This document shows positions 28,901 to 31,900 of a stretch of DNA of 64,000 bases, piece after piece. Source of the stretch: Escherichia coli (GTDB taxonomy: Bacteria > Pseudomonadota > Gammaproteobacteria > Enterobacterales > Enterobacteriaceae). The position numbers are program-made. Position 1 is the first letter of the stretch. Each line of letters begins with the position of its first letter. The stretch lies in the NCBI RefSeq assembly GCF_016026235.1, contig NZ_CP065613.1. One strand, given 5' to 3'.

Positions 28901-31900
28901 ATGCTGCAAACCAGATACGCCGTGACCGTCCGCTGACACATGAAGAGCTGATGCACCATGTGCCGGGGATTTTCGGGGAAGATAAACACACGTCCCGAAG
29001 CCAGAACTATACGTACATCCCCACCATCACCGTACTGGAAAGTCTGCAGCGGGAAGGCTTCCAGCCATTCTTCGCCTGCCAGACCCGTGTGCGCGACCTG
29101 GGCCGCCGGGGATACACAAAACACATGCTGCGTCTGCGGCGGGCCGGAGAGATAAACGGAGAACATGTCCCTGAAATCATTCTGCTCAACTCCCATGACT
29201 GTACCTCCAGTTACCAGATGCTGCCGGGTTACTTCAGGTTCGTCTGTCAGAACGGATGCGTCTGTGGTCAGTCTCTGGGGGAAGTGCGTGTTCCGCATCG
29301 GGGAAATGTGGTGGACAGAGTCATTGAAGGGGCTTACGAGGTGGTGGGCGTGTTTGACCGGATAGAGGAGAAGCGTGATGCCATGCAGTCGCTGGTCCTG
29401 CCGCCACCGGCACGCCAGGCGCTGGCACAGGCGGCACTGACTTACCGTTATGGTGACGAACATCAGCCAGTCACCACCGCTGACATTCTGACACCACGAC
29501 GCAGGGAGGATTACGGTAAAGACCTGTGGAGCGCATATCAGACCATCCAGGAGAATATGCTGAAAGGCGGAATTTCCGGCCGCAGTGCAAAAGGAAAACG
29601 TATCCACACCCGTGCCATTCACAACATCGACACCGATATTAAGCTCAACCGCGCATTGTGGGTAATGGCAGAAACGCTGCTGGAGAGCCTGCGCTGATGC
29701 AGCATGTCCCTGAAAGCGTGATTCAGGCACCAGAATCACCCGACGCCCCGGAGGCGCTGCCGGGGTGTCGTTCCATTTCTGATGATGACCTGTGCGCCTG
29801 GTGTACCCGTCTGCTTTACCGTCCCGGAGAAATCAGTCTGTGCAGACTGAGTATACAGGCAATGGCATCTGGCCATCCGTCTGTGACCGGAACGGTTACG
29901 CGTACGGCTGTCCGGAATTTCAGCCGAATATCATTCATCCCTGATATTACTGGGTCATCACGGTCAGTGATGAACGTGATGTTGCCAGCTCCCGACCTTT
30001 ACTCCCTCTCATTTATTCACATTACAAGGATTTCATACATGAAAACATTGTCTCAGAACACCACCGCTTCGGCCTGTGCACCGGAGACTGGCCTGCAACA
30101 ACTGGTTGCCACCATTGTCCCTGATGAACAGCGCATCAGCTTCTGGCCGCAGCATTTTGGCCTCATTCCACAGTGGGTCACCCTGGAACCCCGTGTCTTC
30201 GGCTGGATGGACCGTCTTTGCGAAAACTACTGCGGTGGTATCTGGAATCTGTACACCCTGAACAACGGCGGGGCATTTATGGCACCCGAACCGGATGACG
30301 ATGATGACGAAACATGGGTACTGTTCAATGCCATGAACGGTAACCGCGCTGAAATGAGCCCGGAAGCCGCCGGCATTGCTGCCTGTCTGATGACGTACAG
30401 TCATCATGCCTGTCGTACGGAGTGTTATGCCATGACGGTCCATTATTACCGGCTGCGGGATTACGCCCTGCAGCATCCAGAATGCAGCGCCATTATGCGC
30501 ATCATCGACTGAATGGAGGCAGGGACAATGCAGCAGCTTTCCTTTCTGCCCGGAAACATGACGCCCGGCGAGCGCAGCCTCATTCAGCGGGCCCTGAAAA
30601 CCCTGGACCGCCATCTTCATGAACCCAGCGTGGCCTTCACCTCCACGCATGCGGCACGGGAATGGCTGATTCTGAACATGGCGGGACTGGAGCGTGAAGA
30701 ATTCCGGGTGCTGTATCTGAATAACCAGAATCAGCTGATTGCCGGTGAAACCCTCTTCACCGGCACCATCAACCGCACGGAAGTCCATCCCCGTGAAGTG
30801 ATTAAACGCGCCCTGTATCACAATGCCGCTGCTGTGGTGCTGGCACACAATCACCCGTCCGGTGAAGTCACACCCAGCAAGGCAGACCGCCTTATCACGG
30901 AACGTCTGGTACAGGCACTGGGCCTGGTGGATATCCGGGTGCCGGACCATCTGATAGTCGGTGGCAGCCAGGTTTTCTCCTTTGCCGAACATGGTCTGCT
31001 TTAACCCGTCACAACCACATCACACCTGTTTTCACTTTTATCTTCTGTCTTCAGAGGTATCCCACTATGAAAATCATCACCCGTGGCGAAGCCATGCGTA
31101 TTCACCGTCAGCATCCGGCATCCCGTCTTTTTCCGTTCTGTACCGGCAAATACCGCTGGCACGGCAGTGCTGAAGCGTATACCGGTCGTGAAGTGCAGGA
31201 TATTCCCGGTGTGCTGGCCGTGTTTGCAGAACGCCGTAAGGACAGTTTTGGTCCGTATGTCCGGCTGATGAGCGTCACCCTGAACTGATGTTCCGTCACC
31301 CGGAAAACGAGTACGACTGGCTGAGCTCAGACGCCGCTGTGGATGAGGCCCTGCTCATAAACGAATACACCTTTACCGAAGGCGGTCTGCGCGCCGGCTG
31401 ACCTGTCATCGTTAAACCATTCTTAACCGATTTTCTGTGAGGATTTTATCGTGTCAGACACACTCTCCGGGACAATGCTTCCCGACGACAATCACGACCG
31501 CCCCTGGTGGGGGCTGCCCTGCACCGTAACGCCCTGTTTCGGGGCACGTCTGGTGCAGGAGGGTAACCGGTTGCATTACCTTGCCGACCGTGCCGGTATC
31601 AGAGGCCTGTTCAGCAATGCAGATGCGTACCACCTGGACCAGGCCTTTCCGCTGCTGATGAAACAACTGGAACTCATGCTCACCAGCGGTGAACTGAATC
31701 CCCGCCATCAGCATACCGTCACGCTGTATGCGAAAGGTCTGACCTGCAAAGCTGACACCCTCGGTAGCGGTGGTTACGTTTATCTGGCTGTTTATCCGAC
31801 GCCCGAAACGAAAAAGTAAACCACCGGAATAACCCTCTGCTACGGCCTGGTGTTTTCACCACGCCACTTTCCCGTTTTTTATCTCTGCATATCAGGAAAA

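What the first reader, a model, noticed from the sequence alone, without database searches (positions are those of the whole stretch)
29697..30038. 114-codon stop-free frame linking the DUF932 stop to the antirestriction gene
The DUF932 stop overlaps an ATG (TGATG at 29695-29699) that opens a frame running without stops into klcA at 30039. klcA has its own strong Shine-Dalgarno, so the upstream part may be a separate coupled gene, an N-terminal extension, or chance. The translated segment is Ser/Pro/Thr-rich and not obviously globular.
Basis: seen in the sequence. Interest (0 to 1): 0.3.

Follow-up and report, generated by a model that had tools for sequence, protein, structure and literature searches.

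The report
Frameshifted small gene fused to klcA
The 114-codon open frame is not a gene of its own: it is a broken copy of a conserved 81-codon gene for a small cysteine-rich protein, and two small insertions skip that gene's stop codon so that the frame runs into the antirestriction gene klcA.

Summary
ATG 29697 overlaps the DUF932 stop (TGATG) and opens a stop-free frame into klcA (ATG 30039).

The frame is a chimera. Other E. coli strains and at least 18 Enterobacterales genera carry an 81-87 codon gene at this position. It starts at the same overlapping ATG and is under purifying selection (median dN/dS 0.22). In intact alleles this gene and klcA share a reading frame and are separated by a single TGA.

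The window has a 2-base insertion (29853-54) and a 1-base insertion (29957) on either side of that TGA (29942-44). As a result:
- Codons 1-52 are the genuine N-terminal half.
- Codons 53-87 are read out of frame.
- Codons 88-114 are former spacer.

The conserved C-terminal half survives unread in another frame (29855-29944). The two-insertion allele is in about 1400 of 5426 complete E. coli genomes. About 150-190 genomes carry the 2-base insertion alone, and at least 788 carry an intact copy. Independent nonsense and deletion alleles also exist.

So this is an ordinary, common pseudogene. Some pipelines annotate it as a 284-aa "antirestriction protein".

The by-product is more interesting. The intact protein belongs to an acidic four-cysteine domain family of about 55 aa with no Pfam, NCBIfam or PDB match. 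The family is found on 1170 plasmids, mostly conjugative and including pOXA-48-like ones, next to klcA and ssb. Its function is unknown.

The parts
28876..29697 (+). DUF932 gene (273 aa). Its TGA stop (29695-97) overlaps the start codon of the small gene.
   Evidence: Pfam PF06067, E=1e-50. ORF listed. The TGATG/TAATG overlap is kept in 22 of the 23 intact loci from other strains and genera.
29697..29852 (+). Codons 1-52 of the small Cys-rich gene, the genuine N-terminal half. It includes the conserved RSISDDDLCAWC...YRPGEISLC core.
   Evidence: 51 of 52 residues match the intact 81-aa allele (WP_001164966.1, locus L001); the exception is G7S. This is the most constrained part of the family: pN/pS is 0.18 for residues 23-52.
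29853..29854 (+). 2-base insertion, a TA/AT duplication (GAGTATACAGG versus GAGTACAGG). It shifts the reading frame.
   Evidence: Alignments A1 and A4 against intact alleles. The exact 60-mer carrying it is in 1550 complete E. coli records.
29855..29944 (+). Remnant of codons 53-81 plus the original TGA stop (29942-44). It is now in a different frame from the N-terminal half. It encodes TGNGIWPSVCDRNGYAYGCPEFQPNIIHP*.
   Evidence: the ORF listing ORF 29792..29944. The third frame is identical to residues 53-81 of the intact allele. The C-terminal motif WP..D.DGY...C is conserved across genera.
29957..29957 (+). 1-base (A) insertion in the former spacer. It brings the shifted frame back into the klcA frame.
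   Evidence: Alignments A1 and A4. Without it the frame stops after 90 codons (L032). The exact 59-mer with the A is in 1398 complete E. coli records.
29945..30038 (+). Former 94-nt spacer between the small gene and klcA. It holds the klcA Shine-Dalgarno AAGGA at 30026-30030 and a C>T change at 29951 not found in any complete E. coli genome.
   Evidence: No promoter-like site, no Rfam hit and no significant RNA fold.
30039..30512 (+). klcA/ArdB-type antirestriction gene (157 aa) with its own start signals.
   Evidence: Pfam PF03230, E=2.8e-37. RefSeq annotates the 157-aa form in near-identical genomes.

Best explanation
The frame is the wreck of a real small gene joined by accident to klcA.

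Intact state (shown). An 81-codon gene starts at the ATG that overlaps the DUF932 stop. It encodes an acidic protein with four invariant cysteines and ends in TGA 94 nt before klcA. Its frame happens to be the klcA frame, and that TGA is the only stop between the two genes.

Window state (shown). A 2-base TA duplication after codon 52 shifts the frame, so the TGA is read out of register. A 1-base A insertion 13 nt past the TGA restores the klcA register. The result is 52 native codons, then 35 out-of-frame codons, then 27 spacer codons, then klcA.

Inferred. The small protein is inactivated, because it loses the conserved C-terminal half with the fourth cysteine. Any ribosome that starts at 29697 would make a 271-aa junk-linked KlcA fusion. 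Normal 157-aa KlcA is still made from its own Shine-Dalgarno and ATG.

Function of the intact protein (inferred, weak). It is probably a metal-binding accessory factor expressed with DUF932 and KlcA when a mobile element enters a new cell.
For: - Intact 81-aa alleles are annotated in RefSeq at the same ATG, with translations.
- The alignment shows the +2 and +1 insertions on either side of the TGA.
- Intact alleles have one stop and 31 sense codons before klcA, in the same frame.
- The intermediate TA-only allele exists (L032, a 90-aa ORF) and is seen on 642 contigs.
- The gene is real. There are 28 loci in at least 18 genera, 20 of them with the full DUF932-small-KlcA-RadC order. The overlapping start is conserved. 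Median dN/dS is 0.22, and third-position entropy is 1.22 against 0.71 and 0.59 for positions 1 and 2.
- The C-terminal half is conserved across 114 diverse members, with invariant D29, C33, C36, S47, C49 and C71.
- The allele is not a sequencing error. Exact k-mers occur in 1550 (TA) and 1398 (A) complete genomes.
- Independent knock-outs exist elsewhere: a W35 nonsense mutation, and a start-codon loss with a 76-nt deletion. At least five of the 28 loci in other genera are also disrupted.
Against: - No expression data are available, so I cannot exclude that the 271-aa fusion is made and works as KlcA.
- The double-insertion allele is the commonest E. coli allele, which a neutral pseudogene does not require. 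It is at least 99% identical across those genomes, so shared descent is enough to explain the frequency.
- The order of the two insertions is inferred from one intermediate allele class, not from a phylogeny.
Confidence: 0.9

Rival explanations
1. The long frame is a functional N-terminally extended KlcA of 271 aa (or 284 aa from the GTG start). The second insertion was selected because it fuses the two genes.
For: The second (A) insertion restores the klcA register exactly, and the double allele (about 1400 genomes) far outnumbers the TA-only allele (about 150-190). Some depositors annotate the 284-aa product as an antirestriction protein, for example EGD4803983.1 and ANK05128.1.
Against: Residues 53-114 are out-of-frame and spacer sequence with no homologue and no family hit. 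No other genus has a fusion; every intact copy in another genus stops after 76-87 codons. klcA keeps its own Shine-Dalgarno and ATG, and PGAP annotates only the 157-aa form. A stop-free run of 62 codons arises in 6.4% of shuffles.
Confidence: 0.06
2. The gene is still expressed in full by programmed ribosomal frameshifting at the TA duplication.
For: The C-terminal half is still intact in the other frame, identical to residues 53-81 of the intact allele.
Against: There is no X XXY YYZ slippery heptamer within 29821-29900, and no significant downstream RNA structure. The preserved C-terminal half is expected from a recent mutation, since the alleles are at least 98.6% identical. Other E. coli copies are knocked out by a nonsense mutation and by a deletion, which points to relaxed need.
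Confidence: 0.02
3. The indels are assembly or sequencing errors in the window, and the gene is really intact.
For: Small indels are typical long-read errors.
Against: The same two insertions occur with exact flanking k-mers in 1398-1550 complete genomes from many laboratories. The exact 271-aa and 284-aa products are already in public collections.
Confidence: 0.01

Closest known systems
RefSeq 'hypothetical protein' WP_001164966.1 / WP_000680587.1 / WP_044186368.1 (81 aa), between DUF932 and the antirestriction gene in E. coli CP4-like islands
   Same: Same locus and same overlapping ATG. Residues 1-52 match in 51 of 52 positions, and residues 53-81 are still encoded in a shifted frame.
   Different: The window copy carries +2 and +1 insertions. 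It therefore lacks the in-frame C-terminal half and the stop codon, which makes it a pseudogene allele.
KlcA/ArdB antirestriction proteins (Pfam PF03230)
   Same: The frame runs into a bona fide klcA, and public records name both the fused product and the 81-aa protein 'antirestriction protein'.
   Different: The 114-aa segment and the 81-aa protein have no PF03230 match. The name looks like annotation transfer from fused ORFs, not evidence of activity.
Small acidic antirestriction proteins of plasmid leading regions (ArdA, and Ocr of phage T7; recalled from established knowledge of DNA-mimic proteins)
   Same: The family is small and strongly acidic: mean net charge -6.3 over about 69 aa, negative in 95% of members. 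On two related conjugative plasmids (one IncL/M pOXA-48-like) it sits among klcA, with ssb also present on the pOXA-48-like one, near mobA.
   Different: No sequence or fold similarity to any solved structure. It has four invariant cysteines, which ArdA and Ocr do not need. No activity has been tested.
Zinc-ribbon-type Cys4 mini-domains
   Same: A CxxC pair plus two distant invariant cysteines in about 55 residues with short beta strands.

Membership tests
Small Cys4 protein family (WP_001164966.1-like, Enterobacterales islands) | Start codon overlapping the stop of the upstream DUF932 gene (TGATG/TAATG) | tested here: met
   Window 29695-29699. The same junction is in 22 of the 23 intact loci.
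Small Cys4 protein family (WP_001164966.1-like, Enterobacterales islands) | N-terminal core RSISDDDLCAWC..(L)YRPGE.SLC in frame with the start | tested here: met
   Window residues 25-49 are identical to the intact allele. These columns are invariant or nearly so.
Small Cys4 protein family (WP_001164966.1-like, Enterobacterales islands) | C-terminal core WP..D.DGY...C (fourth invariant Cys) in the same frame, with a stop at 76-87 codons | tested here: not met
   The motif is present only in a shifted frame (29855-29944), and the stop is bypassed. The window copy is therefore a pseudogene of this family, not a working member.
KlcA/ArdB antirestriction (PF03230) | Significant match to the Antirestrict domain | tested here: not met
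   The 114-aa segment gives 0 Pfam families at E<=1. In the 284-aa ORF only residues 189-284 match, and those belong to the klcA part.
Programmed -1 ribosomal frameshift site | Slippery heptamer X XXY YYZ at the shift point, with a downstream structure | tested here: not met
   No heptamer in 29821-29900. The spacer fold has z=0.11.
Zinc ribbon / Cys4 metal-binding domains | Four conserved metal-ligand cysteines | tested here: met
   C33, C36, C49 and C71 are invariant in 114 diverse sequences.
Zinc ribbon / Cys4 metal-binding domains | Match to a curated zinc-ribbon model or fold; bound metal | tested here: not met
   Only sub-threshold hits, in at most 1 of 114 members. No PDB fold match. 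Metal content cannot be tested with these tools.
Leading-region establishment / anti-defence genes of conjugative plasmids | Location in the co-directional block of small genes next to oriT/relaxase, together with ssb and antirestriction genes | tested here: met
   True for plasmid homologues. In pOXA-48-like NZ_CP068920.1 and pFRPDR_4 the gene lies among DUF4942, Hha, DUF1380 and klcA, upstream of mobA; ssb is also in the block on the pOXA-48-like record. 1128 of 1170 plasmid hits are conjugative.
Leading-region establishment / anti-defence genes of conjugative plasmids | Demonstrated inhibition of a host defence, or early expression in the recipient | not testable with these tools
   No experiment was found. 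A pOXA-48 Tn-seq paper does not list such a gene among those needed for maintenance or transfer in K-12 (PMC12365149).

The most novel reading that the evidence does not exclude
The intact form of this gene is a member of an undescribed domain family. The domain is about 55 aa, acidic, and has four invariant cysteines (core SISDDDLCxxC...YxPGxxSxC...WP..D.DGY...C). It has 319 clusters at 50% identity and no Pfam, NCBIfam, PHROG, PADLOC or PDB counterpart. It is carried by 1170 plasmids, 1128 of them conjugative and including pOXA-48-like ones, and by genomic islands. The novel reading is that it acts at entry into a new host as an anti-defence or establishment factor, possibly together with DUF932 and KlcA. 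Its repeated loss in resident E. coli islands would then reflect that it is no longer needed once the element stops moving.
Probability: 0.3. Interest if true: 0.6.

Novelty: already known. Interest (0 to 1): 0.22.

Why it matters
For the finding itself the value is in annotation. The long frame should not be called a gene or an extended klcA, and the records that do so (284-aa 'antirestriction protein') are misleading. The name 'Antirestriction protein' that UniRef gives the 81-aa protein also has no domain match behind it.

The useful by-product is a clean definition of a widespread, uncharacterised small cysteine-rich domain of mobile elements. It has a confident structure model (pLDDT 89) and is present on clinically important pOXA-48-like plasmids. 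On at least one of those records the annotated CDS is in the wrong frame. That family is a reasonable candidate for testing in plasmid establishment or anti-defence assays.

Tried and rejected
- Pfam, NCBIfam, PHROGs and PADLOC scans of the 114-aa frame, the 81-aa protein and 114 family members gave no family.
- A PDB sequence profile search gave only chance-level hits.
- AlphaFold2 with a shallow 60-sequence alignment gave pLDDT 48 and was unusable. A 114-sequence alignment gave pLDDT 89.
- Rfam, promoter scan and RNA folding of the spacer showed nothing significant. The A insertion lengthens a small hairpin, but z is only 0.11.
- I suspected the K-12 pseudogene ypjI, just upstream of yfjX/lfgA, might be the same gene. 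tblastn shows it is unrelated.
- Phage genomes gave no tblastn match.
- Larger proteins that contain the domain were scanned for partner domains to get a functional clue. Only DUF6876 and a weak DUF3846 hit turned up.
- Literature searches for the accessions found nothing, and a search for DUF932 plus antirestriction gave one unrelated genome report.

Full report
**Observation.** The DUF932 ORF (28876..29697, 273 aa, PF06067 E=1e-50) ends in TGA 29695-97, and ATG 29697-99 overlaps it. The ORF listing reports one open frame, 29658..30512. It contains ATG 29697 and, 114 codons later, the klcA ATG 30039. The klcA part is PF03230 with E=2.8e-37. klcA has AAGGA 8 nt upstream of its ATG.

**What the frame is made of.** A megablast of 29650-30090 against 5426 complete E. 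coli genomes found the region in 2837 of them. In the copies that are 3 bases shorter, RefSeq annotates an 81-aa 'hypothetical protein' (WP_001164966.1, WP_000680587.1, WP_044186368.1). It starts at the same overlapping ATG and ends 94 nt before klcA. Its sequence is MQHVPEGVIQAPESPDAPEALPGCRSISDDDLCAWCTRLLYRPGEISLCRLSTGNGIWPSVCDRNGYAYGCPEFQPNIIHP.

Alignment shows that the window differs by a TA duplication after codon 52 (29853-54) and by a single A at 29957. In intact alleles the small gene and klcA are already in the same frame. They are separated by one TGA and 31 sense codons. The two insertions lie on either side of that TGA (window 29942-44). The stop is therefore read out of register and the frame returns to the klcA register.

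The 114 codons break down as follows:
- 52 genuine codons.
- 35 out-of-frame codons.
- 27 spacer codons.

The missing C-terminal half, TGNGIWPSVCDRNGYAYGCPEFQPNIIHP*, is still present in another frame as ORF 29792..29944.

**Is the 81-codon gene real?** Yes.
- A protein search found full-length 80-87 aa relatives at 53-65% identity in Enterobacter, Citrobacter, Klebsiella, Salmonella, Yersinia and Mixta.
- A scan of one genome per species returned 28 loci in at least 18 genera. The order DUF932 - small gene - KlcA - RadC/JAB is kept in 20 of them.
- The start overlaps the DUF932 stop (TGATG or TAATG) in 22 of the 23 intact loci, which points to translational coupling.
- On a codon alignment of 22 intact genes, median pN is 0.27 and median pS 0.68. 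Median dN/dS is 0.22. Third-position entropy is 1.22 against 0.71 and 0.59 for positions 1 and 2.
- Both halves are constrained: the pN/pS ratio is 0.18 for residues 23-52 and 0.41 for residues 53-73.

The intact form is therefore ancestral and the window allele is derived.

**Population picture in E. coli.** These are counts of complete-genome records with at least one exact k-mer match, so they are lower bounds.

| Allele marker | Records |
|---|---|
| TA insertion present | 1550 |
| A insertion present | 1398 |
| TA site intact | 788 |
| A absent | 975 |

This gives roughly 1400 double-insertion genomes, 150-190 TA-only genomes and at least 788 intact genomes.
- The TA-only intermediate (L032) gives a 90-aa ORF that stops 9 codons after the TA/TA+A divergence, i.e. 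just past the A-insertion site. It has been seen on 642 contigs.
- Other copies are knocked out independently. One has W35 TGG>TAG (L033). Another has ATG>ATA plus a 76-nt deletion (L034).
- At least five of the 28 loci in other genera carry frameshifts, stops or truncations.
- The window also has a C>T change at 29951 that is not seen in any complete genome.
- These are not sequencing errors. The exact 271-aa and 284-aa read-through products are already deposited as 'antirestriction protein'. UniRef also calls the 81-aa protein 'Antirestriction protein', although it has no PF03230 match.

**Rivals.**
- A functional extended KlcA cannot be excluded without expression data. But the linker has no homologue, no other genus has a fusion, klcA keeps its own start signals, and 6.4% of shuffles give 62 stop-free codons.
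- Programmed frameshifting is unlikely. There is no slippery heptamer and no significant structure.

**What the intact protein may be.** A profile search of 1.84 billion representatives found 319 clusters at E<=1e-3, of which 94 are at E<=1e-10. They share a core of about 55 aa: SISDDDLC(A/S)xCxx(L/C)xYxPGExSxC...WP(G/A)xxDxDGYxxxC. The domain occurs alone (55-90 aa) or at either end of 110-294 aa proteins.

- In a 114-sequence alignment D29, C33, C36, S47, C49 and C71 are invariant.
- Members are acidic, with mean net charge -6.3 over about 69 aa.
- No Pfam, NCBIfam, PHROG or PADLOC model covers the domain.
- AlphaFold2 with the deep alignment gives pLDDT 89.2 and pTM 0.76: one short helix and three short strands.
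- tblastn finds the domain on 1170 plasmids, 1128 of them conjugative, and on no phage.
- On a pOXA-48-like IncL plasmid and a relative it lies among DUF4942, Hha, DUF1380 and klcA, upstream of mobA, with ssb also in the block on the pOXA-48-like record. That is the block next to the transfer origin.
- Distant members sit in long co-directional arrays of small genes. Neighbours include SSB, DNA methylase, PAPS reductase, AAA or HATPase proteins and ICE-associated DUFs.
- Leading regions are known to be enriched in anti-defence genes (PMC11541004).

From this I infer, without a test, a Cys4, probably metal-binding, accessory protein expressed with DUF932 and KlcA at entry into a new host. Its frequent decay in resident chromosomal islands fits a role that matters only during transfer.

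**Verdict.** The finding is a common, already-sequenced pseudogene allele whose open frame is a by-product of two indels, so its interest is low. The uncharacterised domain family it belongs to is the part worth following up.

Noticed in passing
L035 (NZ_CP068920.1, pOXA-48-like) 4941-5177 versus annotated CDS 4975-5190: On this pOXA-48-like record the RefSeq CDS WP_004206914.1 (71 aa) is in a different frame from the conserved Cys4-domain ORF. That ORF has a GTG start, 78 aa, and begins VTTLHIREIPTDGAPPICAGRSISDDDLCASC. On the related plasmid pFRPDR_4 the correct frame is annotated (WP_086556679.1). This is probably a mis-framed annotation on a clinically important plasmid.
   Followed up: partly
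L035 about 4905-4935 and about 5225-5255; L036 likewise: A motif of about 26-33 nt, GGCAGCGCCCCGACTGGCGCAGGAGT (ending in a Shine-Dalgarno-like GGAG), recurs upstream of successive small genes in the IncL/M block next to mobA. It could be a repeated regulatory or ssDNA-promoter-like element.
   Followed up: no
public records, seen: UniRef (A0A066T9G9_ECOLX and others) and some NCBI entries name the 81-aa protein 'Antirestriction protein', although it has no PF03230 match. The name probably spread from fused 284-aa ORF calls such as ANK05128.1 and EGD4803983.1.
   Followed up: partly
window 29951: A C>T substitution in the spacer (ATTACTGGG versus ATTACCGGG). It was not found in any of 2112 matching complete E. 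coli records, whose best matches were all 98.3% or lower.
   Followed up: partly
window 28796-28825: A strong terminator-like hairpin (13 pairs plus a T-run) about 50 nt upstream of the DUF932 start. No sigma-70-like promoter was found between it and klcA, so where the DUF932-klcA transcript starts is unclear.
   Followed up: no
L003/L037 417-612 (CV839-06), L033; window about 28630-28775: The DUF905 gene just upstream of DUF932 is annotated as frameshifted in several near-identical E. coli islands. This suggests general decay of this island segment. The state of the window copy was not checked.
   Followed up: no
L038 3423-5174, L039 38-1276, L045 4958-6354: In distant metagenomic members the Cys4-domain gene directly follows, with a gap of 3-10 nt or an overlap, an AAA ATPase (twice) or a radical-SAM protein (once) instead of DUF932. 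This hints that it is a coupled downstream partner of varied enzymes.
   Followed up: no
L043 (K-12 MG1655) 9546-9817: K-12 pseudogene ypjI sits in the analogous position upstream of yfjX (now lfgA) in CP4-57 but is unrelated to the Cys4 family. This CP4-57 segment of K-12 (2766000-2777000) contains no copy of the family.
   Followed up: yes
window 24000-36000: The best complete-genome match over these 12 kb is only 95.8% identical, while the 441-bp region of the finding is 99.8% identical to other strains. The island is therefore mosaic. In the best match it abuts yghD and gspL (type II secretion genes), not the yeeA-sbmC site of K-12 CP4-44.
   Followed up: partly
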